From contig JABVCE010000014.1 in the NCBI GenBank assembly GCA_014905635.1, forward strand, positions 186,001 through 250,000: DNA of 64,000 bases, read 5' to 3'. The translations under genes and the position numbers were made by a program. The notes under the pieces are model-generated. The model was given only the letters and a program-made list of their open reading frames with translations. It ran no database searches and had not been told where the DNA came from. This DNA comes from Scenedesmus sp. PABB004. Its lineage: Eukaryota. Below, one piece after another: positions 723 to 57,900 of this stretch; the stretch's first letter is position 1; every line of letters starts with the position of its first letter.

Positions 723-877
723 CGCGAGCTCCGGCCGGTGCCTGCCGACAGTTGGGGCCCGTGCGGTCCACCGGCGGCGGTGATCTCGCCTGACGGACGC
801 TCCGGCCGCGGGCGTGGACGCGCAGCGGGTGCGGGCGGGCAGGGGAGAGGCGCTGCCTGGGTGCCGGGGCGCGTGCA

Positions 878-1176
878 GCGGCGGGGGCGCGCGCGCGGGC
901 GTGCGGGGGCTGGCGGCGGGACACGCGCGGCGTTGGCTCTCTCGACAGCGCCGGGCGCGGCGCGCGGCGGGTCGCGGGAGAGGGAGCTGGAGGGTTTGGC
1001 CGCTCGCCCGCGCGCCTGCCGCACGCCGGCCGCGCGCCGGCGCCGCCCCGGGGCAGCCCACGGCCGCCCTGCAACGCCCCCGGCCGCCGCACAGGCCCGC
1101 CCGCGCCTTCCCGCACTTGAACGCCCGCCCGCTGTCTGTCGGCGCCGCGCCGCGCGGGGAGGCCCCCGCCGCGCTC
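878..1176. repeat. Direct repeat A, copy 1 (~300 bp, upstream of the 1288 gene)
   Basis: Near-identical to 3003-3296; shared strings include ctctcgacagcgccgggcgcggcgcgcggcgggtcgcgggagagggagctggagggtttggccgctcgcc and gcacttgaacgcccgcccgctgtctgtcggcgccgc. Confidence 0.95.
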
Positions 1177-1287
1177 TTCACGGGTCCAGGGCGGTCCAGC
1201 ACCGCGCGTGGTCGCTAGTCAGGCCGCGGCGGGAGCTGCGTCGAGCGGCGGCAGCGGCGGCGACGGCGGCGCCGTCCTCGCGCCGCG

Positions 1288-2965: not shown

Positions 2966-3002
2966 CGCGGGCCGCCGGCGACCGCTCGGGGCGCGGCCCG
3001 CC

Positions 3003-3296
3003 GCGGCGGGGGCGCGCGCGCGGGCGTGTGGGGGCTGGCGGCGGGACACGCGGCGCCGGCTCTCTCGACAGCGCCGGGCGCGGCGCGCGGCGGGTCGCGG
3101 GAGAGGGAGCTGGAGGGTTTGGCCGCTCGCCCGCGCGCCTGCCGCACGGGGGCCGCGCGCCGGTGCCGTCCCGGGGCAGCCGCGCGCCCTGCAACGCCCC
3201 CGGCCGCCGCACAGGCCCGCCCGCGCCTTCCTGCACTTGAACGCCCGCCCGCTGTCTGTCGGCGCCGCGCCGCGCGGGGAGGCGCCGGCGGCGCTC
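3003..3296. repeat. Direct repeat A, copy 2 (upstream of SufB)
   Basis: Matches 878-1176 with a few substitutions and small indels. Confidence 0.95.
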
Positions 3297-3543
3297 GGCG
3301 CGCGGGTCCCGGGCGGCCGGCCCGCCGCCGCCGGGCGCCACGCGGCGCGCGTGCGGGGCAGCGCCCGCGCCACTCGGCGGCTCAGGCGCACGCGGGAGCT
3401 TGACGGGCTCTCCGGGGCTCTGTGGAACCGCGGCCCGCCCGCTCCTGCAGCAGCAGGCGCGCCCCGGTCCCGGCGAGGCGTCAATTGTTTCGTTCGGCCG
3501 CGACGTGGATCAAGCGCTCGTTCGGCGCCGCCAGCCCGGCGCG

Positions 3544-42982: not shown

Positions 42983-43359
42983 GGCGGCGGGTGTGGGACG
43001 CGGCATGGACGCGGGGGCGTTTGCCGCTTGCGTCAGAGCAGCGGCTGCGGCGGTTCTGCGCCCCAAACGCGCGGGCGCCTGGCCCGCTGCCCGTGGTCTC
43101 CGCGCTGCTGGCCCGCCCCTGCCACAGCCGACACACCGTCGCGAGCCCCGCCGCCGCCGCCGCCGCCGCGACCGCCGCCGCTGCTGTGCTGTCGAACGCC
43201 CGGCGCCCGGCATGGTGGAGCGCAGCGGGGGGCCGTGCGGCACGCCGCAAACCCTGCCGGCCAGGCCCAGAACAACGCTAGGCCTGCTGCAGCCTGGGCG
43301 CGCGCTCGCTCGCGCCGCCGCCGCTGCTGCCGCCGGCCGCAGCAGCAGGTAGCATGCTG

Positions 43360-43625
43360 GATGGAGATGAGGCGCCGGCGCGCCCGCTCGGTGTCCACGG
43401 CCGCGAGCGCGGCCAGGCGCACCACGCGCCACACGCCCGAGCACAGCGCCACCGCGCACGCCCGCGCGCCGCGCCGCCGGCGGCGGCGCGACCACGAGCC
43501 AGACGTGCTCGGGGCGCAGGCGCGGCGCGCCCCCGGCTGAGCGCGCCACTCAGCGGGCAGGGCGTCGAGCGTGGCCCGCACCACCACGGCCGTCCCCGGC
43601 GGCCCCGTCCAGGCCGGCCAGCGCT
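43360..43625 (-). mobile_element. Degenerate 3' fragment of an L1-type non-LTR retrotransposon ORF2
   Basis: Across two frames reads AVVVRATLDALPAEW..PRLRPEHVWLVVAPP..SGVWRVVRLAALAAVDTERARR, paralleling RLHCRHIWLGRRP..QMVWDMVCIAAIHACERGRR in the element at 44158-46045. Confidence 0.55.
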
Positions 43626-44041
43626 GCGGCTGATGCCGCGCTGCTGCGGCTGCTGCTGCTGCCGCGGCGGCGCCGTCGCCGCCGGTGCGGCGGCGGCCGC
43701 CGCCGCACCGGGGCCGGCGCGCGTGTCGCCGCCGGCTGCTGGCCCACCACCAACTGCCAAGCCACCGGCGGCGCCGCTGGCGGCACGCGGCGCGCCGGCG
43801 GGGCCACAGCCCCAGCGCTGCGAGCGCAAACGCGACGCGCTCGTCGCGCCGCTGCGTGTCCGCCCCCGGGCAAAATCGACTTCCAAGAACTCGGTCCGAT
43901 CGACCCGAGCGCGCCCAACCCGAATCAGGGGTCAAAATTGGCATTCCGCGAAAATCGGTAATTTGAGTAAAGAGCAATATAAACAGCAGGATAGCCCTGC
44001 TTGTCAGTCGGTCAGCTGCGCACAACTCGTGCGTCCAGCGA

Positions 44042-44112
44042 GCGCTCGTAGTCTAGTGGTATGATAGGTCCCTGCCACGGACCAGGCCCGAGTTCGATTC
44101 TCGGCGAGCGCA
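44042..44112 (+). tRNA. trnG-GCC: tRNA-Gly (anticodon GCC), intronless
   Basis: Cloverleaf: acceptor GCGCTCG/CGAGCGC+A, D loop AGTGG, anticodon arm GGTCC-CTGCCAC-GGACC, T arm CCGAG-TTCGATT-CTCGG; T6 Pol III terminator at 44121-44126. Confidence 0.97.
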
Positions 44113-44157
44113 GACACGCGTTTTTTCTCGGCGAGCGCAGACCACTTACCAAATCAA

Positions 44158-44247
44158 TCAAAAAGAAGGCGTTTGTCGCACAACATCAACCCCGTGCGGG
44201 GACACGGGGTGGGGGTTGATGTTGTGCGACAAACGCCTTCTTTTTGA
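44158..44247. repeat. Perfect 36-bp inverted repeat (44158-44193 / 44212-44247) at the element's 5' junction
   Basis: tcaaaaagaaggcgtttgtcgcacaacatcaacccc ... ggggttgatgttgtgcgacaaacgccttctttttga. Confidence 0.97.
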
Positions 44248-44718
44248 CAGCGGGCGCCAGCGGCTGCCGCAGCCCCTGCGCTCGTTCGCGCTCGGGCTGC
44301 GCGCGCTGCCGCCGCTGGAGTGGCTGGGGCCGGGCGAGTATGACTGGCGGGCCCACAGCTGGGATGCCCCCCTGTGGGGCAACCCGCTGCTCACGGTGCG
44401 GCAGCAGTGGCGCTGGCCGGCCCAGCCGGGGGAGGAGTGTGTGCGGGATGTGGCAGTGGGCTTGGAATGTGTGGTGGCCCCGGGCTTGCGCGGGCTGCCC
44501 TGCCTGCAGACGGTGGGCCAGGCGGTCACGCTGCTGGCCGTTCTTGAATCGGATCGGTTGACTCCGCCTCGTTGGGGCCTTGGGTTGGCGGAACACATGA
44601 ATTACCTGGCTGCAGTCTGGGTGCCATGCCTGGCTTCCCGGCAGTGTTACCAGGCAGGTAGGCAGCGTGCACTCGATGACGTGCGCGCGCTGGTTGACAG
44701 GCTGCCGCCATCCTGGGT

Positions 44719-44758
44719 AAAAGATAAAGATAAAGATAGTTACACCACAGGCTCGCGC
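44719..44758 (-). mobile_element. 40-bp nested retro-insertion with 11-bp TSD (ccatcctgggt, 44708-44718 / 44759-44769)
   Basis: Minus strand reads gcgcgagcctgtggTGTAActatctttatctttatctttt, i.e. a poly(A) signal followed by a (TATCTT)n tail. Confidence 0.8.
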
Positions 44759-46400
44759 CCATCCTGGGTGGCGGCGGCGCGAGCTCGGCTGGCGGCGGCG
44801 GCGCGCGCGGGCCAGCCCGTGAGCGCCCCGGCGCCGGTGCAGCCAGCAGCGTTGGCGGCGGCGCGTGCGGCGATTGCGGTTGGCCTGGGCTGGCCGCTTG
44901 TGGGTCGGCCGGTGCAGCCTGGTTGCCGGCCGGGGGTACGGCTGGGGCAGCTCACGGTGGCGCTGGCCACGCGGCTGCAGGCGCTGCCGGCGCGCGCTGA
45001 GCTGCATGCCCGCCACCACCGCCACTGTCTGACGGTTTCTGAGTTTGATGGTTTGCCGCACATTGGGGGTGATGAGCTTGCGATGCGCACGCGCCACGCC
45101 ACGGTGTGCCAAGCCCTGGCGCGCTGGTGGCAGCTCAAGGTGCCCAACACGTACAAGGAGGCGGCCTGGCGGCTCACGCTGCAGGCCTTTCCGACTGCCA
45201 GCCGCATGCAGCCGGGGCCGGGCATGGTGGACTATTGTGTCTACTGCTGCCCAGGGCCGCTGGAGGCGCCGGAGCCAGCGGAGGCGTCCGGACTGGGCGG
45301 CGCGCTGCACCCGAGCGAGGCGCACCATTTCTGGCGGTGCCCGGTGGCAGGCGAGGTGTGGGGTGAGATCGAGAAGCAGCTGGCTGCTTTTGACTGGTGG
45401 CCGGACGGCGCGCGCTTGCACTGCAGGCACATCTGGCTGGGGCGCCGGCCGCGGGAGCAGCTGTCCCAGATGGTCTGGGACATGGTCTGCATCGCTGCAA
45501 TTCACGCGTGCGAACGCGGCCGGCGCGTGGCCTGGATTTTCCTGCAAGTGCGGGAGCGTGCCTTGCCCTTTGACGTGGCTCGACACATTGTGAGGCGGGC
45601 GGCAGTGAGTGCGTTTTGGGAGGCGCTGGCCGACTTTGCGGCGACCGCTTACGTGCCCCGCGCTGCCCGTACGCCCGACCTGACGGGCCAGCCCTTTCTG
45701 GCTTGGTGCACTCCCCGCGTCGCGGGGAGTGGCTTGGTTGTTATTCGGCGATGAGGATGGTGGCATTCTCCCAGCACTCCCGCGCGCGCGGGTTGCACGC
45801 TCGCGGGCACGCGCGACCCGCGGTCACCGGCTGCCGCCGACACTGAAACACTGCTACTGCCCAGCAGCGAGCGATCGGTCAAGGTGTGTGCGCGGAGACA
45901 GCACTGAGTGTGTGCAGGCGACGCTTTTGGGCGTGAGCGTGGCCACAGGCGGCAGCTGCGCGTGAGTGACTGACTATACCAAAGTGATGGGGTCCGTGTT
46001 TGCGCCGTAGGCGCTTGTTCACCCCTGGTAACGCCCTTCTTCTTTCTGCCGCCGCTCGCCTTTTTTCAGCCACGCCGCGCCTGCTGGGGGCCGCCCGGGG
46101 CTGCGCGGGTCCCGGCCGGCCCGGCGGCGGCCGCGCAGCGCCGGTCAACGACCGCGCCGCCGCAGCCAGCCGCCCGCCGGGCGCGGCGCTTCCCCCGTCG
46201 CAGGGGCGGCGTGGTGGTGGCGGTGTGCGCCCCTCGGCGGCTGTCGCCGGGCATGGGCCGCCGACAGCCGGCAGTGGCTGTTTACCCTCGCCCGCAGCGG
46301 CGCCCGCGGCGGCGGCGGCGCGGCGCCCGGCCACAGCCCGCCGAGCCCGACGTGAGGGCCGAGGGGCCGCGCTCCCTCCCTCGCGCCCCGCGCCTCGCCA

Positions 46401-48776
46401 CTACCGGTTGCGCCGGCTGCCCGCGCCGGCCTCCTCGTACTGCCGCTTGGTGCGCACGCACTGCCAGTAGTTGTCGCCCGCCGCAAACGCCGACGCGCCG
46501 CGCCACGCGGCGAGCTCCGGCTCCTGCGGCGCCAGCACCACGAGCTCGCACCCCTGCGGCGCGAGGCTGCGCAGCTCCGCCTCGAACCGCCGCGCAAAGC
46601 CGGGCAGGTTGACGCAGCCGCCCGTGAGCACGACCTGGCCGAACAGCAGCGGCGCGAGGCCCGCCGGGCACGCGTCCACCGCCTGCACCACCACCTCGGG
46701 CAGCCCCGCCTGCTGCAGCCCGATGTCCGACGGCCTGCGCCGCGCCGGCGGCGCCGCGCCGCGGGCGGCGGTCACGTGGGCGCAGGCCCCCGCGCGCCGG
46801 CCGCCACCAGCGCCGGGCCGTCCCCGAGGCGGCCCTGCCCGCGCACGCGCGCCGCGCCGCGCCCGTGGCGCGCACACCCACCCACCCACCCACCCACCTG
46901 AACAGCGCCTCGGGGACCATGAAGAGCTCGTTGTTCAGCGACAGCACCTGCTCGCTCCCGCCGCCGCCGCCGCCGCCGCCGCCGCGCTTGGCGCCGCCGG
47001 CGCCGGCGCCCTGCGCCGCCGCGGCGCCCTGCGCCGCCGCGGCGAGGCGCTCGGCCGCCTCCTTGCGCTCCACCTCCTCGATGTGCTGCGGCTTGGCCGG
47101 CCAGGGGCCTGCGCAGCCGGCGGCGGCGCGCGCAGCTTTGCGCGGCGCCCCGCCGCGCGCAGCAGCCCCGGGCGCCGCCGCGCCGCGCCGCGCCGCGTTG
47201 CCGGCGCCGCACCCGTGGTGATGCCGGCCAGGCGGCCGCCCGGCGGCGTGAGCGCGGCGACGAGCTCGGGCGCGGGCGGCTTGACGTAGCCGCGCAGGTT
47301 GTGCACGCCGTCCGGCAGCACCACGTCGCGGCGGTGCGGCGACCGCGCCGCCGGGTTGGAGCGCCGCAGGTCGGCCACGGCGTCCTGTGTGCGTGCGGCG
47401 CGCGGCGCGCGGCGCGCGGCGCGCGGCGCCGGGGCGGGCTCAGGAAACACTGCGCGGGGGCACCCCTCCAGCTGGCGCTGCGCCCCGCACGCCGCCCCGC
47501 GCGCCGCGCACCTCGCTGACCCAGGCGAGCTGGTCCTTGAGCCGCTCCACCAGCACGCCCTCATCGGCCATGTTGAGGCTGCGGTACGACACAGTCTCCT
47601 TCAGCAGGTTGGTCAGGGCCTTGCCGCCCAGGTTGAGCCGCCGCACCGCGCCCGGGAGGAGCTGGCCGTCGTAGAAGGGCGCCGCGTAGCAGGCCGAGAA
47701 GCCCGCGTCCACGATCACGCCCGCGCCCGCGGCCTTGGCCGCCGCGCACGCCGCCGCGCCGGCGGCGCCGAGCGCCGCGACGGGCGCGCAGCGCGCCGCC
47801 GCGGGCGCGTGCGCCGCCGCCGGCGCCGCCCCCGGCGCGGGCGGCACGCCCGGGATGGCGCACGGCGGCGGCGGCGCGGGCGCGGTGACGACGGGCGTGT
47901 TGCAGGCGTGGTGCAGCGCGAAAAACGGCGCTGGCGCGGCGAGCAGGCTGTTGAAGCCAAAGCCCTCAAACACCATCTGCGCCACACGCGGCGGCGGCGG
48001 CGGCGAGGCGGCGGCGGCGGCGCGGTGGGCGCGCGGCCCCGGGGTGGCGGCCGGGTGAGCGCGGCGGCGGCGCGGCGCGGACGCCGTCGGGGCGCGCTGC
48101 GCGCACCTCCTCCGTCGCGGCGCGCACGTCGTCAAAGTTGAACAGTGGCTCCGTGAGCAGCAGGCTGTGCGCGCCAAACTCGAGCACCGCCCGGCCGCGC
48201 GCGGCGCCGGGCGGCGCGGCGCCGCCGGCGGTCGTGGCGGCGAGCGAGGCGAAGCCGCGTGCCCAGATGTCGCGCTCCAGGTCATAGTTGACCATAAAGC
48301 CCTGCGCGGCGCGCGCGTACGAACGGCCAGGTCAGCGCGTTGCAACACAGACGAGCGGGCAGCCGACGCAGCACAGCGCTCCCGTGCCGCGCGGCTGCAA
48401 CCAACACAAGCAGACGCTGCGCTGCGCGCACACCCGGTCGTGCGGGCGCCGCACGACCATGCCGCCGACCTCGCGCGCCTCCAGCAGCGCGTCGCCGACG
48501 TATAGCTGGCGCTCGCCCTTGGCCTTGGCGGTGCAGTTGGGGAACACGCTGCGACGGCGGCGGGGCGCCGCGCGTCGGCGCGCGGCCGCCGCGGGCGGCC
48601 GCGGCAGCTCGCCGCACGGCGCGCGGCGCACGGCGCGCGGCCCGCTGCCGCTGCTGCCGTGCAGCGCGCGGGCGCCGGTCTCACAGGCGCGGGTCGGCCT
48701 CGCCCTCAAAGCCGAGCTTGATGCTGCCGGCGCCGTTGTCGAGCACGACGACCTGCTGCTGCCCGCACTGCATCAT
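46401..48776 (-). CDS. ARP6: Actin-related protein 6 (SWR1 complex), multi-exon
   Basis: VVVLDNGAGSIKLG, VFPNC, RRPHDR-GFMVNYDLERDIW, LLLTEPLFN, VIVDAGFS, RLNLGGKALTNLLKETVSYRSLNM, VVLPDG, LNNELFMVPEALFRPSDIGLQQAGLPE, VVLTGG, KRQYEEAG. Confidence 0.93.
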
Positions 48777-48864
48777 GGTCGCCGCCGCCGCCGCGCCGCC
48801 GCCGCCGCGGCGCTGGCCCGCGGCCCGGGGCCGACACAGTGATCGGCGCCAGCCGCGAGCTGCT

Positions 48865-49536
48865 GCGCCGGGCGCGTCACGGGGGGCGCGGCGCGCCGCG
48901 AGCAGCGGGCCGCTGCGCCGCCGCCGCTGCCGCCCGGCTGCCGGCGGTGCGGCGCGGGGCCTGCGCCGGGGCGTGGCCGCTGGCGCAGCGCGTGACGGGC
49001 GGCTGGAAGCAGCTGGAAGCAGGCGGCGGCGGGGACGTGCGGCGCGGCGCCGCTGCCACGCTGCTGTTGATCGGCGCCGCCCGGGCGCGAGGGGAGCAGC
49101 AGGGGGGAAGGTGCTGCGGCCGTGGTGACCGAGCGGCCGCGGTGGTGCGGCCTGCGGTGCGGGCCTTTGACGCGGGCGTGCGCTTGTGTGCGTCACAAGT
49201 TGTAACGCGCCGCCCCGGCCGCTCCACCCATTCAGAGCCGCCCCCTCCCTCACGCCACATCGCTGGGCCGCGCCCGCCACTCACCGGCAGCAGCACGTCG
49301 CCAGCGCCGCCGCACCACGCGCTGCGGCGCAGGCTGCTGACGCGCCGCGCTGCGCCCGCTGCCGCCGCCGCCGCTGGTCGCTCAGCCCGCGAGGCGCGCG
49401 CCACGCACGCGCCCATGCAAGGCCCGGACGAGGCGACGCGGGGGGAGGTCGCCGCGAGGTGTGCGGCGGCGGCAGGCGCGTGCGCAGCAGCGGGGCGCGG
49501 CCGGGCGGCTCCACGCGCCGCCGCCCGCACACACCG
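48865..49536. repeat. Direct repeat B, copy 1 (~670 bp; upstream region, exon 1 and intron start of the LRR-like gene)
   Basis: Near-identical to 51318-51949. Confidence 0.96.
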
Positions 49537-51256
49537 CCCAGCCGTCGCCCGCCACTCACCCGCCGCCCGCCGCCGCAGCGAGGGCGGCCTGCTGGCCGTG
49601 GCGTTGCGCGCGCCGGGCGTCGTGTGGTCGCCGCCGCGGCGCGCCTGCTCGCAACCAGCCGAGCCACGGCGTCCGCGGTGGCGCGCGACCTGCGCGGCCG
49701 CGTCTCGGCGCGCGTCGCGCCGGCGCTGACGGACGTCGACCAGGTCAACGTCGGCCTTGATCGAGACGGGGGCGCACGCGAGGACTGCGCGTGGCTGCAG
49801 CGCCACGCCGCGCTGCTGGCCGAGCTCGACCTGACCTTAGCGCACGGGGTGCGGCGCCGCCGCGCGCCAGCTGCAGCGAGCGGCTGCGGCGCCCCTCTGC
49901 GCACCGCACGAGCGCGGCCCGCGCCGCCGTCGCCGCGCCCCTGCCTGCGCCCCGCGCGCCGCCCCGCAGTCGGCCAGCGGCAACGTCCACTGTTATGCAC
50001 GAGCGCTGGCCAGGGCGCACGTCGCGGCCGGCGGCGCGGAGCCGCCAGAGTGGCAGCCCCCCGCAGTCGAGTGCGAGTGCGGCGACGAGGGCTGCGGCAG
50101 CACGCTGCCGCCGTTCGGCGCCACGGGCGAGCCGCCGCGCGGGCTGCTGCTGCGGCGCGTGACCACCAACGGCGCCGACTCGGGCCTGCTCGCCGCGCTG
50201 CCGGGCGGCACGCTGGAGCAGCTCGAGCTGCGCCTCGCCTACAGGGACCTGCTCCCCCCCTGGGCCGACGGCATGCACGGCAAGCAATGCCCGTCGCACG
50301 TGCAGCAGCTGGTGGACGCGATCGCCGCGAGGTTCCCTGCGCTGCGCGTGCTGTGGCTCCCCGTGGGCTGGTTCCCAGCATGCTCCTTCGCCCACGTGCA
50401 CGGCGTCGACGCGGCCTGCGCGCTGCACGCGCCGGCGCTGCGCGCGCTGAGCCTGGGGCACGTCGTGGACGTCGCGTCGCTGCGGGCGCTGCCGGAGGGG
50501 CTCACCGCGCTCACCGCTGTGCTGCGCGGGCCGCCCGCGGCGCGGGTCCGCCTCGGCCACCTCACAGCGCTGCGCGAGCTGGAGCTCACGGTCGCCAACG
50601 ACGGCGGCAGCGACCCCGACCCTGCCCACCCCGAGCGGCTCGTGCTGCGCGGCAGCGGCAACGTGCTGCCGCCGCACCTCACGCGCCTCGTGCTCGGCCG
50701 CGGCGGCGCCGCCAAGCCGCTGCTCGCGCTCGCGGGCAGCCTGGAGTGCCTGGACATCCCCAGCTGCCGCATGGCCGGGGGCGAGATCGCCAAGCTCTCG
50801 GGCCTGCAGCGACTGCGTGAGCTCTCGCTCGCGTGGGACACCCCCGGCGCGGCGCGCGCCGCGGCGCCGGCCTGGCCGCGCCTGCCGGCGCTGCGCGCGC
50901 TGTCGCTGGCCGGCGCCGACGCGGCGCTGCTGGAGCAGGCGGCGACGGCGCGGGGCGTGACGCGGCTCTGTCTGCGCTCGCCGCCGCCGCGGACGGAGGC
51001 CCTGCTGGAGCCGCTGCTGCGGGCCATGCCGGCGCTGCGCGAGCTCGCGCTGGCGGAGCTGCGCGCCGGCGCGTCCGGCGACGCACTCGCCGCCGCGCAC
51101 CTCGCAGCCGGCACGCAGCTCACGCGGCTGGAGCTGCGCGGCTGCGAGCTGGCGCCCGGCGCCGTCGCGGGCGTCGCGCGGGCGTTCCCGGGGCTGCGCC
51201 GGCTCGCGGTGCTGCCCGCCGGCACGCAGAACGTGTGCCTGGGCTGCCGAGGCTGA
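49415..51256 (+). CDS. Leucine-rich-repeat-like protein, possible 1-bp frameshift near 49630
   Basis: ATG 49415, GT-AG introns, CAWLQRHAALLAELDL, then many LxxLxL units (LTALRELELT, LQRLRELSLA, LTRLELRGC) in ORF 50159..51256. Confidence 0.7.
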
Positions 51257-51317
51257 CGCGCGTGCCTTTGCAGTTGCACAGGCGGTTGCACAGGAGCCTG
51301 CAGTTGCTGCTGCCGCC

Positions 51318-51949
51318 GCGCCGGGCGCGTCACGGGGGGCGCGGCGCGCCGCGAGCAGCGGGCCGCTGCGCCGCCGCCGCTGCCGCCCGGCTGCCGGCGG
51401 TGCGGCGCGGGGCCTGCGCCGGGGCGTGGCCGCTGGCGCAGCGCGTGACGGGCGGCTGGAAGCAGCTGGAAGCAGGCGGCGGCGGGGACGTGCGGCGCGG
51501 CGCCGCTGCCACGCTGCTGTTGATCGGCGCCGCCCGGGCGCGAGGGGAGCAGCGGGGGGTGAGGTGCTGCGGCCGTGGTGACCGAGCGGCCGCGGTGGTG
51601 GCGGCCCAGGCCTGCGGTGCGGGCCTTTGACGCGGGCGTGCGCTTGTGTGCGTCACAAGTTGTAACGCGCCGCCCCGGCCGCTCCACCCATTCAGAGCCG
51701 CCCCCTCCCTCACGCCACATCGCTGGGCCGCGCCCGCCACTCACCGGCAGCAGCACGTCGCCAGCGCCGCCGCACCACGCGCTGCGGCGCAGGCTGCTGA
51801 CGCGCCGCGCTGCGCCCGCTGCCGCCGCCGCCGCTGCTGGTCGCTCAGCCCGCGGGGGGAGGTCGCCGCGAGGTGTGCGGCGGCGGCGGGCGCGTGCGCA
51901 GCAGCGGGGCGCGGCCGGGCGGCTCCACGCGCCGCCGCCCGACACACCG
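51318..51949. repeat. Direct repeat B, copy 2 (upstream of POLI), lacking the 49 bp that contain the ATG
   Basis: Matches copy 1 except that 49392-49440 is absent (cgcg microhomology at the junction) plus small indels. Confidence 0.96.
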
Positions 51950-52000
51950 TGCCAAACCCCGCCCCCCCCCCCCCCGCAGGAGCAGCTGCAGGGGCGCGGC

Positions 52001-54331
52001 ATGAGCGGCGAGCAGAGCGCGCGCGCCGCGTTCCGGGCTGCGCAGCACGCCGGCCCGCACCCGGCGGTCGCGACCGGCGCGGCGGCGCACGGCGCCCCGC
52101 CCGGCGGCGCCGGCGGCGCGGCGCTGCCGCTGCTCCCGCCCGACCAGGAGCGCGTGATCATTCACTTTGACGTGGACGCGTTCTACTGCCAGGTCTGGAC
52201 AGCCGCCCCCCGCCGCGACCGCCGCCGCAGCGCCGCCGCCGCGGCTGCCGCCGCCGCCGCCGCTGCGTCGCCGCCGCCGCAGCGCCGCCGCCGCCGCTGC
52301 GCCGTTCCGCCGCTGACGCCGCCGCCAACGCGCGCGCGGCGCGCCAGGTCGAGGAGGCGCGCAGCCCCGCGCTGCGCGGCGCGCCGCTGGGCGTGACGCA
52401 GAAGTACCTCGTGGTCACCGCCAACTACGCGGCCCGCGCGGCGGGCGTGACGAAGCTCATGGCCATCGGTGACGCGCGCCGCGCCTGCCCCGGCCTCGTG
52501 CTCGTCCCGGGCGAGGACCTCACGCCCTACCGCGCCGCCAGCGCCGCCATTCGCGCCGTGCTCGCCAGGTGGGCTGGTCTCATGCATGCGCGGCGCCGCC
52601 GCCGCCGCCGCCGCCGCCTCGGCCGGCCCCGCCGCCGCCGACCCCGCCGGGGCGCCGCCGCGCGCGCGTGCGCGCCAGGTGGGGCCCCGCCGAGAAGCTG
52701 GGCCTGGACGAGGCCTGGGTGGACGTCACGTGCGAGGTGCTCGCGCGCGTGGCGGCCGCCGGCGGCGCCGCGGGCGTCGCGCCGCCGCCGCTGAGCAGCC
52801 CGGGCGCGTGGCCGGCGCACCTCGCGACCGCCGCGACGCCGCTCGCGGCGGACAGCAAGCACCGCCCCCAGGACCTGCGCGCCACGGCCGGCGCGCCGGG
52901 CGCGCCGGGCGGCGATCGCGGCGGCGGCGGCAGCGGCGAGGCCGCGGCGCCCGACGACGCCGGCGGCGGCGCGCTCGAGTGGCGCGCGAGGCTGTTTGTG
53001 GGCTGCGCGGTCGCGGCGGAGATGCGCGCCGCGGTGGCGCAGGAGACGGGGTTTAGGTGCTCGGCCGGCATCGCGTTCAACAAGCTGCTGTCCAAGCTCG
53101 TCAGCGGGCTGCACAAGCCCGACGACCAGACGGCGCTGCCGCCGAGCGAAGCGCTCGCGTTTGTGTCGGCCCTGCCCGCGCGCGCGCTGCGCGGCGTGGG
53201 GTTCAAGGCCGAGGCCGCGCTGCGCGGCGGCTGGGGCGTGGTCACCGCCGGCGACGCGCAGCGCCTGAGCAGGCAGGCGCTGGTCGACGCGCTCGGCGAG
53301 CGCCAGGGTGAGCGCGCCGCGCTGCGGCTCCGCGCCGCACCGCTCACCGCGCCGCGCCTCGGACTGCGCGCCTCGCCTCGGACCTTGCCAGCCCACCGCG
53401 CGCCGCGACGCCCGCAGGCGCGTGGCTGTTTGCCGGCTGCCGCGGCGTCGACGCGTCGCCCGTGGTGGCGAGCGGGCCGCCCAAGACCATCTCCGTTGAG
53501 GACAGTTTCAAGCCGCTGAGCGCGTGGCCCCAGGTGGCGGCGGTGCTGCAGGTGCCCGCGCCCGCCCGCGCCCGCCCGCGCGCGCGTGCCCGCCCGCGTG
53601 CGCGTGCTCGCCGCGCGCGGTCGCCTGCGCCGCACGCGCGGTGCGTGAGCCCGCGTGCGCCGCCCGCCCGCCCGCCCGCTGCCGGCGCAGGTGCTCGTGC
53701 CCGACCTGCTGGAGCGGCTGGCCGAGGACGCGGCGGAGCACGGGCAGCGGCGCCCCGCGTCGCTCACCGTGCGGTGGCGCCGCGCGGGCAGCGGCTGGCA
53801 GCGCAGCAGCGCGTCGGCGCCCTGGCCGCCCGCCGCCGGCGGCCCGGGCGCCGCCGCGGTCGCGGCGGTGAGCGCCGCCGCGCTGGGCCTGCTGCAGCAG
53901 CACCTCGGCGGCGGCTGCGCCGACCTCACGCTGGTCAACGTGGGCGTGAGCCTCAAACAGCAGCCCGCGGCGGCGCCCGGCGGCGGAATCGAGCATTTCT
54001 TCAGGCCAGCAGCCGCCGCGCCGGGCGCCGCCGCAGCGCCGGCGGCGGCGCCGGCCGCGCCCGCGCAGGGCGCGCCCCCGCCCGCCGCGGGGCTGCAGCT
54101 GCAGTCGGCCCTCCGCGCGACGGCGGCGCGCCGCGACTATGCGCGCGCCGCTGGAGCCACGGCGGGCAGCCCGCCGGTGCTGAGTAAGCGGCAAGAGCGG
54201 AGACTGCTTGAGCAGGCGATGCAGCAGCAGCCCGGGCTGGCGCCGCGCGCGGCGGCGCCGCGCGCGGCGGCGCCGCCGCCCGGCCACAGCGGCGGCACGG
54301 GGCCGTCGCCGAACCAACAGCAGCAGCGCTC

Positions 54332-54393
<62 letters not shown>

Positions 54394-54659
54394 TGGGCGG
54401 CCCGCTGCCGCCGCGCAGCAGCACGAGCCCCGCCGAGCGGGCCGCCAAGCAGCCGCGGCTGGCGGCGGCGGCGGAGCAGCAGCAACCAGCTGCCGGCGCG
54501 GCGCCTGTTCTGGCTGCCAGCCCGGGCGGCTGCGCCGGCGACGGCAACCCGCCCTGCATCAACCTGCACAGCGTGAGCGGCTGGGGCGTCATCAGCTGCG
54601 AGCTCGTCGAGACGTACGGCGGCGCCGACGACGACGCGTGGGCGCAGCAGCCGGACTAG
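52001..54659 (+). CDS. POLI: Y-family translesion DNA polymerase, iota type
   Basis: RVIIHFDVDAFYCQVEE..PLGVTQKYLVVTANYAARAAGVTKLM..LVLVPGEDLTPYR..EKLGLDEAWVDVT, CSAGIAFNKLLSKLVSGLHKPDDQT, PPKTISVEDSF; the QKYLVVT and GEDLT motifs are iota-like; TGTAA at 54808. Confidence 0.88.
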
Positions 54660-54943
54660 GCAGCAGAGACGAACACAACGTCCTAGGTTAGGAGGGCGCA
54701 CGAGGCAGCAGGATGAGGGGGGGGGGCACGTGCGCGGAGCCGCGGTTTGTGGTCGCGCCGGCGCCGCCCGGGGACGCGGTGCCAGCCGTCGCGCCGCCGC
54801 GCTGATCTGTAACCCGTGCACCGAGCGGTCGCGGCCAGCCACCGACGGCAACGGTGTCACACCGGCGACGCGATCACGCCGCGCCCGGCCGCCCCGCCGC
54901 CCGGCCGAGCGCCGCGCCGCGCCCGCGCCGCGCCGCGCCGCGC

Positions 54944-57900
54944 TCACGGCCGCGCGTCGGGCAGCAGGTAGGGCCCCACCGGCAGCAGGCGATACGCGTG
55001 GATGCAGTCCAGCACGTACGCCAGCGGCACGAGCGGCGGGCAGCGCGGCCAGCGCGCGGCCAGCGCGCGCGCCGCCGCGGCCGGCACCGCGGCGCGGTCC
55101 CCCGGCGGCGCCAGCACGACCACAAACCGCGGCTCCGCGCGCGGCGCCGCGGCGCCGCCGCCGGCGGCGGGCGTGAGCGCGCCGCCGCGCGTCAGCCGCA
55201 GCTCCTCAAACGTGCCGCCGCCGAGCCCGACGAGCCCCCGCACCGCGTCGGCGGGGCCCTGGCCGACGTCCGCCGCCAGCATGGCCACGTGCGCACCCTC
55301 GAGCAGCCGCGGCCTGCCGGGGCCGCCCGCCGCGAGCGCGCGCGCGGGGCCGCCGTCGAGCGGCGGGACGCCGCGCCGCGTGAAGCCCCGCACGAGGTGC
55401 GGCCCCTCCGCGACGGGCCCGCCCGCCGCCACGCTCGCCGCGAGCCAGCTCGGGCGCAGCAGCGGGAGCCGCAGCACCAGCGCGCGCAGCACGCCCATCC
55501 CGCTGATGCCTGCCGCGCCCGCGTCGGTGGGGTGCGAGGGCGCGCGCCCCTCGGCGTCCACCGGGAGCACGAGCCAGCGCGTGTACCTGCGCCGCGCCGG
55601 GCGGCGGGGCGGCGGGGGCTTGTCAGCGCGCGCGGCAGGCACGTGCTTAGAGGGAGCCAGCTGCGGCGCCCGCCGCTGCCGTGCCAGCCAGCCAGCCGGC
55701 CGCTGGCGCGACGCGGACCTGTGGTCAAACGTGGCGTTGATGGAGAGCCCCGCCTGCACCGCTGAGCGGCGCAGGCTGATCTGGTCCTCGCGCTCGCCGT
55801 ACATCGTCACAAAGCAGGCGCCCGGGGTGGCGTGGAGCGCCGGGCTCCGCGCCGCACGTGCCGGCCGCGCGCCGCCGTCGCTGCCGTTGCCGCCGTCGCT
55901 GCTGCTGCTGCTGTCGCCGTCCGAGACCAGGTCACAGTAGAGCGGCTGCTGCTGCTGCTGCTGCTGCTCCTGGCGCTGCTGCTGCTCCTGCTCCCGCCGC
56001 CCAGGCTTTGGCTCACGGCGACGCTCGTCCAGGCGCGGCTCGCCGGGCGCGGCCGCGGCCTTGCAGCGCTGCGCAGGCGGGCGGCCGGCGGGCAGCTCCG
56101 GCGCCCGGGCAGGGCCGAGCTGCTGCGGCTCGGTCTCAGGCGGCAGCCAAGGGTCTGCTGGCGGCGGCGGCGGCGCCGCCCGCGCGGGGGCGTCCCCTGC
56201 CGCCGTCGACGCATCCCCGGCAGGGCGCTGGCGCTCGGACGCGGCCCCGCGCGCGCCGGGCTTCGGCCCGGCGGCGAGGCGCCCCGGGTCCGCCGCGTCG
56301 GCGCCCGCCTGCTGCGCCTCGCTGACGCCCTCCGCGCCGGGCAGCTCGCTGTCGCTGTCGCTGCTGCCCTGCGCTGCCGCTGCTGCTAGCTGGGCGTCCA
56401 GCTGCTTGCTGAGCACGTCCCACGCCGCAGCCGCCTCGCGCCCGAGCGCCGCGTCCGCCGCGCCCGCGGCGGCGGCCGCCGCCTCGCGCTGCTGCGCCTC
56501 GCGCCGCGCCTGCTGCCGCTGCCGGCGGCGCTGCTGGTCGGGCGTTGTGCCCTGGATGGGGTCATCCTCCTCGCCGCTGCTGCTGCTGACGCCGCCCTCC
56601 CAGCCCGGCAGCGCTGCCGCCGCGCGCCGGCCGCGCCCGCGCCCGCCGCGGCGCCCCGCCGCGGGCGAGCGCGGCGGCTCAGACGGCTGCCGCCGCCGCC
56701 GCGCACCCGCGCCGCCGCCGCGCCCGACCGGTGGCTCCGACGCGCCGCGCCGCCCGCGCGCCGGCTGTGCGGCCTTGCGGCCGCCGGCGCGCGGCGGCGG
56801 CTTGCTGCGCGCGCCGCGGCGGTGCCGGGAGGCAAGAAAGGCGTCGCTGCTCTGTGAGCCCGCTGCTGCCGTGCCGGCGGCGGCGACCTCGCGGTCAGAG
56901 GCGCAGCCCGACTCTACGAGCTCGGGCGCTCCCTCGGGCAGCAGCGCGCCGGCGGCGGCGCCGTCGCCTTCCGTGCCGGCCAGCAGCTCCGCGTCGGAGG
57001 GCTGGTGATACTCGTCGTCGCCGCCGCTGGTGGCGTCGCTGCCGCCCAGGCTGCTGCTGCTGCTGCTGCTGCTGCCACCGCCGCCGCCGCGGCCGCCGCG
57101 GCCGCCGCCGTGGCCGGCGCGGCGCTGGCGATCCGCGCGCCGCGGCCGCGCCTCGCCGCCTGCGCCCGCGCGCTCGCGACGCTGCCGCAGCAGCGCCTGC
57201 TGCAGCTGGAAAAAGGACGGCTGCTGCTGCTGCTGCTGCTGCGGCGCGCCCTCCTCCGCCGGCCGCCACACCTCGCGGTCCAGCTGCAGCGCCGGCTCCA
57301 CCTCGCCGTCGTCGTACGTCACGGCGTGGCTGCCGCGCGCGGCGTCAAAGCCGGTGACCGTGCCACTGGGAGGGGGGGGGTGGCAGGCGCGCGACAGCTC
57401 GGCGACGGCCGCGCCACGGCGCCCCTGACTCCCCCCGCGCCGCGCCGCGCCTCCCCCCGAGCCGCGCCACGCCGCCGCACCTGTAATAGCAGCCGTCTTG
57501 GGGCCAGAAGACCTCGATGCGTCGCCCCACCAGCGCCCGCGCCAGCGACGCGCCGGCCGCCGCGGGTTGCACCGGCGCCTGCGGCACGGTCGGGGGTTGC
57601 AGAGCTCGGGCGCGCGCCGCGGCGGCGGAAGCGCGTGCGGCAGTCCGTCCCGGCCCTGCGCTGAGGGGTCTCACCTTGGCCGCGGCAGCGGCGGCACGCC
57701 TGCGCAGCGCGCGCCCCGAGGCCGTGGCGTTGCTGCCGCTGCCGCCGCCAGCGTCGGCGCCGCCGCTGAGCGCTGGCGCCCAGCCGCGGCTGCGGTTGCC
57801 GCTCTGCTGCTGGCGCTGCGGCTGCTGCACGCGCTGCGCCGCCGGCTCCGGCTGCGGGGCGCCTGCGGGCGGCTGCGCCACGTCAGCGGGCACCCCTGGC

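What the first reader, a model, noticed from the sequence alone, without database searches (positions are those of the whole stretch)
48865..52003. Promoter and first exon shared by duplication between the LRR-like gene and Pol iota, with the ATG cleanly missing in one copy
Seen: a ~650-bp direct repeat brackets the LRR-like gene. Copy 1 covers the ARP6/LRR divergent spacer, the LRR ATG, exon 1 and the splice donor gag|gtgtgcg. Copy 2 lacks 49392-49440, including the ATG, between cgcg microhomologies, keeps the donor, and is followed by a C-rich cag acceptor (~51979) just before the POLI ATG (52001). Inference: the same exon is coding in one gene and a 5'-UTR exon in the other, a snapshot of promoter capture. 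The direction of capture is unresolved.
Basis: partly seen in the sequence, partly recalled or inferred. Interest (0 to 1): 0.72.

Follow-up and report, generated by a model that had tools for sequence, protein, structure and literature searches.

The report
Polymerase gene borrows neighbour's first exon
In a GC-rich green alga, a recent local duplication placed one gene's promoter and first coding exon in front of the neighbouring DNA-repair polymerase gene, where the exon has lost its start codon; this is a clean example of a known kind of partial gene duplication, and its use in RNA is untested.

Summary
The repeat is real: 48859/65-49535 vs 51306/18-51948, 5 substitutions in 621 aligned bases, copy 2 lacking 49 nt with ATG 49415; two copies in G000. 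The direction can largely be resolved. Exon 49415-49458 belongs to the LRR-like gene: coding signature (0.6-1.4% of null 44-mers reach it), and both paralogues have a short exon 1 with a phase-2 intron. POLI's Met 52001 aligns with the start of 3 orthologues. So POLI most likely borrowed the exon (about 0.65). Had the ATG stayed, all three candidate acceptors give an out-of-frame uORF stopping on POLI's ATG, which would favour its loss (inferred). No RNA or reads were available: splicing and use are untested. Known kind (partial duplication). The scan noted promoter-plus-exon capture before in two other genomes.

The parts
46401..48776 (-). ARP6 (actin-related protein 6), 7 predicted exons; start codon 83-89 nt left of copy 1
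   Evidence: Pfam Actin E 3.4e-9; best hits named ARP6/actin-related 6; exon model
48865..49535 (+). Repeat copy 1: ARP6/LRR divergent spacer, LRR 5' leader, exon 1 and the first 77 nt of intron 1
49201..49205 (+). TGTAA inside the repeat (copy 2: 51661-51665, 405 nt after the LRR stop); possible poly(A) signal for the LRR gene in copy 2
49388..49440 (+). 49-nt segment missing from copy 2 plus its CGCG microhomology; contains ATG 49415
49415..49458 (+). LRR exon 1 coding part (44 nt, phase-2 donor at 49459)
   Evidence: coding LLR +3.0/+3.6 in the ATG frame, -7.7 to -10.8 in the other frames; paralogue exon structure
49459..49578 (+). LRR intron 1 (120 nt; CTCAC at -21); only its 5' 77 nt are duplicated
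49579..49848 (+). LRR exon 2, N-terminal family motif; 11 nt at 49631-49641 where both paralogues have 15 (frameshift)
49970..51256 (+). LRR exon 3, open 428 codons, LRR-like; no near-identical copy in G000
   Evidence: Pfam LRR hits all below curated cut-offs
51318..51948 (+). Repeat copy 2, starting 50-61 nt after the LRR stop; ATG-less exon ending 51872, donor 51873
51873..51979 (+). Predicted chimeric 107-nt leader intron: 5' part from the repeat (CCGAC at -38), 3' 31 nt unique, C-run and CAG acceptor
   Evidence: not shown in RNA
52001..54659 (+). Y-family polymerase (Pol iota by source names of hits), 5 predicted exons, conserved start Met
   Evidence: Pfam IMS E 4e-16 and 4e-9

Best explanation
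Copy 1 is the original: the divergent spacer between ARP6 and an LRR-like gene, with that gene's own coding exon 1 and the start of intron 1. A recent local duplication (tandem duplication of spacer plus LRR gene followed by loss of the second gene body, or one template-switch repair event) put a second copy just behind the LRR stop and joined it, inside an intron, to the last 52 nt in front of POLI's native ATG, replacing whatever lay there. POLI is therefore probably transcribed from the copied promoter, with the former LRR exon spliced on as a 5' leader. The copied ATG would have opened an out-of-frame 18-22-codon uORF ending on POLI's own ATG; the 49-nt deletion removed it. Shown: sequence relations, exon ancestry, conserved POLI start, frame arithmetic. 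Inferred: mechanism, order of events, transcription and splicing, selection for the deletion. ARP6 and POLI were probably neighbours before the LRR gene arrived, so the ARP6-side part of the copy may descend from POLI's old promoter.
For: Exon 1 scores as coding in the ATG frame: 59th-68th percentile of 160 predicted first-44-mers, reached by 1.4% (k=2) and 0.6% (k=3) of 3,530 stop-free upstream 44-mers. Both G000 paralogues are predicted with a short exon 1 (14 and 116 nt) and a phase-2 intron ahead of the same motif; 55 of 208 first introns are phase 2. The start of exon 2 matches a paralogue in the frame set by this donor (11 of 19 identical, E 7.9e-5). Met 52001 aligns with Met 1 of Enallax, Hariotina and Astrephomene orthologues. 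All 3 in-frame-with-POLI acceptors (51980, 51986, 51992) give a stop at 52002-52004 if the ATG is kept. The LRR body has no near-identical source elsewhere (best 68% DNA over 569 nt, 51% protein), as expected for a resident gene. Left 340 nt of the repeat scores weakly as divergent-spacer DNA (LLR +1.6, +3.1, +4.3). A comparable locus on C2 shows a promoter plus coding start copied in front of an unrelated neighbour together with a fragment of a third gene.
Against: No transcript evidence at all. Hariotina ARP6/POLI adjacency is most simply explained by one insertion of the LRR body with the spacer duplicated, which would make the spacer POLI's; my reading needs two steps. The leader intron in copy 2 looks canonical across the junction (CCGAC at the modal branch distance, which copy 1 lacks by 1 nt), which fits a native POLI intron as well as a compensatory change. 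TGTAA occurs in only 1 of 54 divergent spacers but in 15 of 99 tandem spacers on the sense strand, which favours the left half being LRR 3' DNA; against that, 11 of those 15 lie within 339 nt of the stop and 8 within 102. The spacer classifier is weak (AUC 0.66-0.79; 14-31% of true 3' regions score as high). Only 3 of 11 POLI-like proteins viewed carry the conserved N-terminus; the others start nearer the catalytic motif or are truncated. All percentiles rest on my own self-trained gene finder, which in its last round fused LRR and POLI into one model.
Confidence: 0.65

Rival explanations
1. One-step insertion: the spacer was the ARP6/POLI promoter with a POLI 5'-UTR exon; the LRR body (49536-51311) was inserted with the spacer duplicated like a long target-site duplication, and the LRR gene captured promoter, ATG and donor.
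For: Consecutive ARP6 and POLI gene numbers in Hariotina (gene8319, gene8320); canonical leader intron in copy 2; staggered breaks are known to duplicate unique DNA at rearrangement ends (PMC1885836, abstract).
Against: Needs a chance ATG in the right phase with a coding-like signature in a POLI leader, then loss of that native ATG from POLI's own copy; no donor for the LRR body in G000; paralogues share the exon-1/phase-2 layout. Raphidocelis ARP6 and POLI lie on different contigs.
Confidence: 0.14
2. The copy is real and derived as in the best explanation but is not used as a spliced leader: POLI starts transcription late in copy 2 or beyond it, and the 49-nt loss is neutral decay.
For: Copy 2 has other indels (6, 7, 3, 1 nt); microhomology deletion needs no selection; no RNA seen.
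Against: Only 52 unique nt lie between copy 2 and the ATG, 31 of them a near-ideal 3' splice site (0 of 172 upstream regions have an acceptor of 9.5 or more within 60 nt of the ATG; this one scores 10.6); the donor is intact.
Confidence: 0.1
3. The repeat is LRR 3' UTR plus LRR promoter and exon 1, i.e. the junction of an LRR tandem array or of a circular copy; about 1.3 units replaced the old ARP6/POLI spacer, so both ARP6 and POLI now run on LRR-derived DNA. A related two-step form: older duplication, later homogenised by gene conversion that carried exon 1 into copy 2.
For: TGTAA statistics; explains adjacency in Hariotina and exon ancestry together; 4 of 5 substitutions fall in 48 nt (P 0.008 under uniform placement), as conversion tracts would leave.
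Against: 48865-49100 scores as divergent-type DNA in all three models; TGTAA is unusually far from the stop; ARP6 would have had to lose its promoter too.
Confidence: 0.07
4. Assembly artefact: two haplotypes or a chimeric read joined in tandem.
For: About a quarter of Scenedesmaceae strains are diploid (PMC13315243, passages); no reads could be checked; the LRR frameshift shows a possible local error.
Against: The copies differ by 5 substitutions and 5 indels, both junctions of copy 2 are unique sequence, ARP6, LRR and POLI are each single, and similar pairs at 86-97% identity recur, too diverged for consensus errors.
Confidence: 0.04

Closest known systems
Partial gene duplication (5' flank, first exon, breakpoint in an intron) and chimeric duplicates across adjacent genes, as defined by Katju 2012 (PMC3449122, passages read)
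   Same: Upstream region, exon 1 and part of intron 1 are copied; the downstream breakpoint lies in an intron; the copy is joined to other sequence.
   Different: No new ORF is made: the copied exon has lost its ATG and the recipient keeps its ancestral protein; the outcome is regulatory.
Duplications of unique DNA at rearrangement breakpoints by staggered breaks (Ranz et al. 2007, PMC1885836, abstract: 17 of 29 Drosophila inversions)
   Same: A few hundred bases of non-repetitive DNA duplicated at the ends of a moved gene; fits the two inverted cases found elsewhere in G000.
   Different: The focal pair is direct, 2.4 kb apart, and the exon evidence says the copy is not a simple target duplication.
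Tandem duplication followed by loss of redundant genes; microhomology-mediated template switching (FoSTeS/MMBIR) (recalled, no call)
   Same: Would leave a direct repeat of the intergenic DNA around a single-copy gene, with short homologies at junctions.
   Different: Cannot be told apart from each other here; no intermediate is preserved.
Lineage-expanded LRR-like proteins of sphaeroplealean algae (family label recalled)
   Same: Two paralogues in G000 share the N-terminal motif, exon layout and LRR-like C-terminus; 28 distant relatives at 28-39% identity.
   Different: No Pfam LRR model reaches its cut-off; this copy is frameshifted in exon 2.

Membership tests
Partial gene duplicate (Katju 2012) | Derived copy is a truncated part of an ancestral gene | tested here: met
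   Copy 2 holds 5' flank, part of exon 1 and 76-77 nt of intron 1 only
Partial gene duplicate (Katju 2012) | Ancestral and derived copy can be told apart | tested here: inconclusive
   Right end favours copy 1 as ancestral; left end weakly; no sister genome
Chimeric duplicate / partial duplicate with recruitment | A new ORF combining duplicated and other sequence | tested here: not met
   No ATG in 51600-52000; POLI starts at its conserved Met
Promoter and leader-exon capture | Recipient is transcribed from the copied DNA and splices the copied exon | not testable with these tools
   No sequencing run was listed; splice signals only predicted
Promoter and leader-exon capture | Copied DNA lies directly upstream of the recipient with no room for another promoter | tested here: met
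   52 unique nt between copy 2 and ATG 52001
Insertion with long target-site duplication | Empty-site state in relatives | tested here: inconclusive
   Consecutive gene numbers in Hariotina, orientation unknown; not adjacent in Raphidocelis; Tetradesmus POLI not retrieved
Insertion with long target-site duplication | A donor copy of the inserted DNA elsewhere | tested here: not met
   Best other match 68% DNA, 51% protein
Dispersed repeat or transposon end | Many copies across the genome | tested here: not met
   2 full-length copies among 49 matches (counts are lower bounds)
DNA polymerase iota | Y-family (IMS) catalytic domain | tested here: met
   Pfam PF00817 above cut-off on two exons
DNA polymerase iota | Groups with iota rather than eta, kappa or Rev1 in a tree | not tested
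   Label rests on source names of close hits, most 'iota', some 'eta' for fused proteins

The most novel reading that the evidence does not exclude
In this gene-dense alga (spacers about 450 nt, mostly promoter), gene order changes chiefly through local events that duplicate a whole promoter, so both affected genes stay transcribed; of the order of a hundred or more genes may run on a recent copy of an unrelated neighbour's promoter or first exon, and borrowed start codons are then purged, as at POLI. That would make promoter swapping between neighbours countable and testable within one genome.
Probability: 0.3. Interest if true: 0.65.

Novelty: new member of a known kind. Interest (0 to 1): 0.42.

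Why it matters
If RNA confirms it, the locus is an unusually complete record of regulatory rewiring: donor and copy 2.4 kb apart and 99% alike, an exon turned from coding to leader, and the one deletion that frees the recipient's start codon. A translesion polymerase would share a promoter sequence with ARP6 and an LRR-like gene. The larger point is the recurrence: four more promoter-region duplications in 854 kb suggest a general route of gene-order change in compact algal genomes. Without RNA and a sister genome it stays a well-supported anatomical inference of a known type.

Tried and rejected
Sequencing runs: none was listed for 48000-53500, so expression, splicing and the frameshift could not be checked; this is no evidence either way. 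Metagenome scan with a POLI exon gave 10 loci, 37-79% identity, on contigs of 1.2-8.3 kb; I did not examine them for synteny. Tetradesmus synteny: ARP6 accessions found but its POLI was not among the 120 hits listed of 207, and a paper search for the 6 neighbouring accession strings found 0 papers. Phase-0 donor at 49448, which would fit both acceptors in frame: rejected, 6th percentile and paralogues put the start of exon 2 in the phase-2 frame. Alternative LRR acceptor before 49659 restores a 506-codon frame but scores at the 4th percentile and skips the conserved motif: possible, not favoured. An ARP6 5'-UTR intron spanning the left half: no acceptor above the 30th percentile at the repeat edge. 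k-mer enrichment in divergent spacers gave no motif that assigns the left half. Transposon: only two copies. Print: searches (promoter capture; Pol iota uORF; duplicated promoter in green algae; partial duplication with non-coding exon) listed nothing on this locus or on such duplications in algal nuclear genomes, judged from listings and abstract starts only; the library lacks most subscription papers. Supplements of PMC13315243 (ploidy, synteny) were not read and may bear on adjacency and diploidy. Earlier scan notes for this genome: none.
Full report
Setting. The window is G000:C7:186001-250000 of a 39.97-Mb, 80-contig genome, about 79% GC. Its proteins have their best hits in Scenedesmaceae (ARP6 72% to Tetradesmus obliquus; POLI 48% to Enallax), so it is a sphaeroplealean green alga by inference. 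To get genome-specific yardsticks I trained a simple gene finder on 664 kb (window plus hand-picked stretches of C7, C1, C13): 212 genes, 1,295 introns, median intron 124 nt. It recovered the ARP6 and POLI exons I had read by hand, but its last round fused LRR and POLI into one model; all percentiles below are against its predictions, not against RNA.

Copy 1 is 48865-49535 and copy 2 51318-51948, with 5 substitutions in 621 aligned bases and indels of 6, 7, 3, 49 and 1 nt. The 49-nt gap sits between CGCG words and removes ATG 49415; copy 2 has no ATG before 52001. Such a microhomology has a 5.7% chance rate. The donor is ordinary (53rd percentile), the LRR acceptor good (67th), the acceptor before POLI the strongest class (100th); 0 of 172 predicted upstream regions have one of 9.5 or more within 60 nt of the ATG (the gene finder may absorb such sites, so this rate is a lower bound). 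Only these two full-length copies were found among 49 matches in G000.

Whose exon is it? Three results point to the LRR-like gene. First, 49415-49458 scores as coding in the ATG frame (LLR +3.0 and +3.6; other frames -7.7 to -10.8); 1.4% and 0.6% of 3,530 stop-free upstream 44-mers reach that. Second, the two paralogues in G000 (L023, L038) are each predicted with a short exon 1 and a phase-2 intron before the same N-terminal motif; 55 of 208 first introns are phase 2; and the first 19 residues of the motif match in the frame this donor sets (E 7.9e-5). Third, POLI needs no upstream coding exon: Met 52001 aligns with Met 1 of three orthologues, with a shared HP motif at residues 20-21. I chose these 3 from 11 POLI-like proteins viewed because they carry this N-terminus; by eye none of the other 8 has an extension like exon 1. 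So at the right-hand end copy 1 is native and copy 2 derived.

Why the ATG went. The donor is phase 2 and the three usable acceptors before POLI (51980, 51986, 51992) are all phase 0 to POLI. With the ATG kept, each gives a short out-of-frame ORF whose TGA (52002-52004) overlaps POLI's ATG. That such an overlapping uORF would lower POLI translation follows from scanning initiation (general knowledge); that selection fixed the deletion is inference. A 1-nt difference also gives copy 2 a CCGAC at -38, the commonest branch-region word here (207 vs 51 of 1,131 introns) at its modal distance; this can be read as compensation or as a sign that the intron is native to POLI, so it does not decide.

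The left-hand end is less clear. A Markov classifier puts the left 340 nt with divergent spacers (LLR +1.6, +3.1, +4.3), but weakly (AUC 0.66-0.79). Against it, TGTAA is a 3'-end word in this genome (sense 15 vs antisense 2 of 99 tandem spacers; 16 of 53 convergent; 1 of 54 divergent) and lies in the repeat, 405 nt behind the LRR stop in copy 2; 11 of the 15 tandem cases are nearer than 340 nt. ARP6's start is under 90 nt from copy 1, so its promoter must lie in it. Four of five substitutions cluster in 48 nt (P 0.008), so gene conversion may have made the copies look younger than they are.

Synteny. Hariotina reticulata ARP6 and POLI are gene8319 and gene8320. Positional numbering and orientation are assumed, not shown. 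Raphidocelis has them on different contigs (GBF91703, GBF90329), and the Tetradesmus POLI was not retrieved. The simplest reading is that the LRR gene entered between old neighbours. Because its body has no near-identical source in G000 while the repeat is 99% alike, arrival and duplication were probably separate steps; the one-step insertion rival cannot be excluded.

The LRR gene is broken in this assembly. Between two anchored motifs exon 2 has 11 nt where both paralogues have 15 (49631-49641); paralogue matches switch frame there, and the product stops at 49729. Exon 3 is open for 428 codons. This is a young pseudogene, a weak alternative acceptor (4th percentile), or an error. Pfam LRR models all stay below cut-off.

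It is not unique. Self-alignment of 854 kb (adding C2) for pairs of at least 150 nt lying 0.5-30 kb apart gave 16 rows. I count 5 as promoter-region duplications between unrelated neighbours: the focal pair; window 865-1194/2987-3316 (direct, 91%, same layout: minus gene, copy, plus gene, copy 22 nt after its stop, plus gene); C2:528231-528786/530689-531248 (direct, 97%, promoter and coding start copied before a neighbour, with a piece of a third gene); and two inverted pairs, C7:404183/406046 (90%) and C1:1066310/1071467 (87%), each upstream of two same-strand neighbours, as a one-gene inversion out of a divergent pair would leave. The 11 rows set aside are tandem arrays or internal repeats (5), paralogous or partial gene copies (3), two weak 76-78% rows and one 722-nt inverted pair of unclear nature. 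Four non-focal cases in 854 kb would extrapolate to well over a hundred genome-wide, from a small, hand-picked sample.

Comparison and verdict. It works like a partial duplication with an intronic breakpoint (PMC3449122, passages read) but makes no new ORF; duplicated unique DNA at rearrangement ends is known from Drosophila (PMC1885836, abstract read); diploidy in the family (PMC13315243, passages read) keeps a small artefact risk. Four searches showed nothing on this in algal nuclear genomes, from listings only. Two earlier scan notes describe promoter-plus-exon capture in other genomes (unchecked). No run was listed, so transcription and splicing are untested. New member of a known kind; interest 0.42.

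Noticed in passing
window 865-1194 and 2987-3316: Second direct repeat (91%, 335 nt) with the same layout as the finding: minus-strand gene (looks like a starch synthase), copy, plus gene 1288-2965, copy starting 22 nt after its stop, plus gene from 3544 (looks like SufB). Names recalled from translations; Pfam gave no hit on the three pieces tested.
   Followed up: partly
window 49631-49641: LRR exon 2 is 4 nt shorter than both paralogues: frameshift, so pseudogene or assembly error.
   Followed up: yes
G000:C2:528231-531248 (L103-L104): Promoter and about 260 coding nt of one gene copied (97%) in front of the neighbouring methyltransferase-like gene, ATG retained, followed by a short piece matching the end of the nuclease-like gene upstream: a three-gene patchwork. 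Gene names recalled.
   Followed up: partly
G000:C7:404183-404529 / 406046-406391 and C1:1066310-1066777 / 1071467-1071952: Inverted non-coding repeats (90%, 87%), each copy upstream of one of two same-strand neighbours (IspD-like and acetyl-CoA-synthetase-like; CCCH-zinc-finger-like and an unknown gene; names recalled): fits single-gene inversions with a duplicated promoter.
   Followed up: partly
G000:C7:330410-331130 / 334194-334898: 722-nt inverted repeat (97%) around a small predicted gene; could be transposon ends.
   Followed up: no
window 53691-54659: POLI ends where several orthologue models (P0003, P0004, P0005, P0146) continue into a second Y-family-like domain; a search of G000 with that domain gave only 2 weak matches (34% and 46%), so it may be lost in this lineage.
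   Followed up: partly
window 49192-49206 (and 51652-51666): TGTAA lies within a near-palindrome (arms 6 of 7 complementary, 1-nt spacer) at the AT-richest part of the spacer; possible factor-binding site.
   Followed up: no
664 kb sampled: TGTAA marks only a minority of 3' ends (15 of 99 tandem spacers) and usually lies within about 100 nt of the stop; CCGAC is the commonest branch-region word.
   Followed up: partly
window 54729-54775 and 55097-55143: 47-nt inverted repeat, 91% complementary, between the POLI 3' region and the last exon of the convergent gene.
   Followed up: no
window 43000-46400: About 3.4 kb without a predicted gene and with lower GC (68% in 44001-46000).
   Followed up: no
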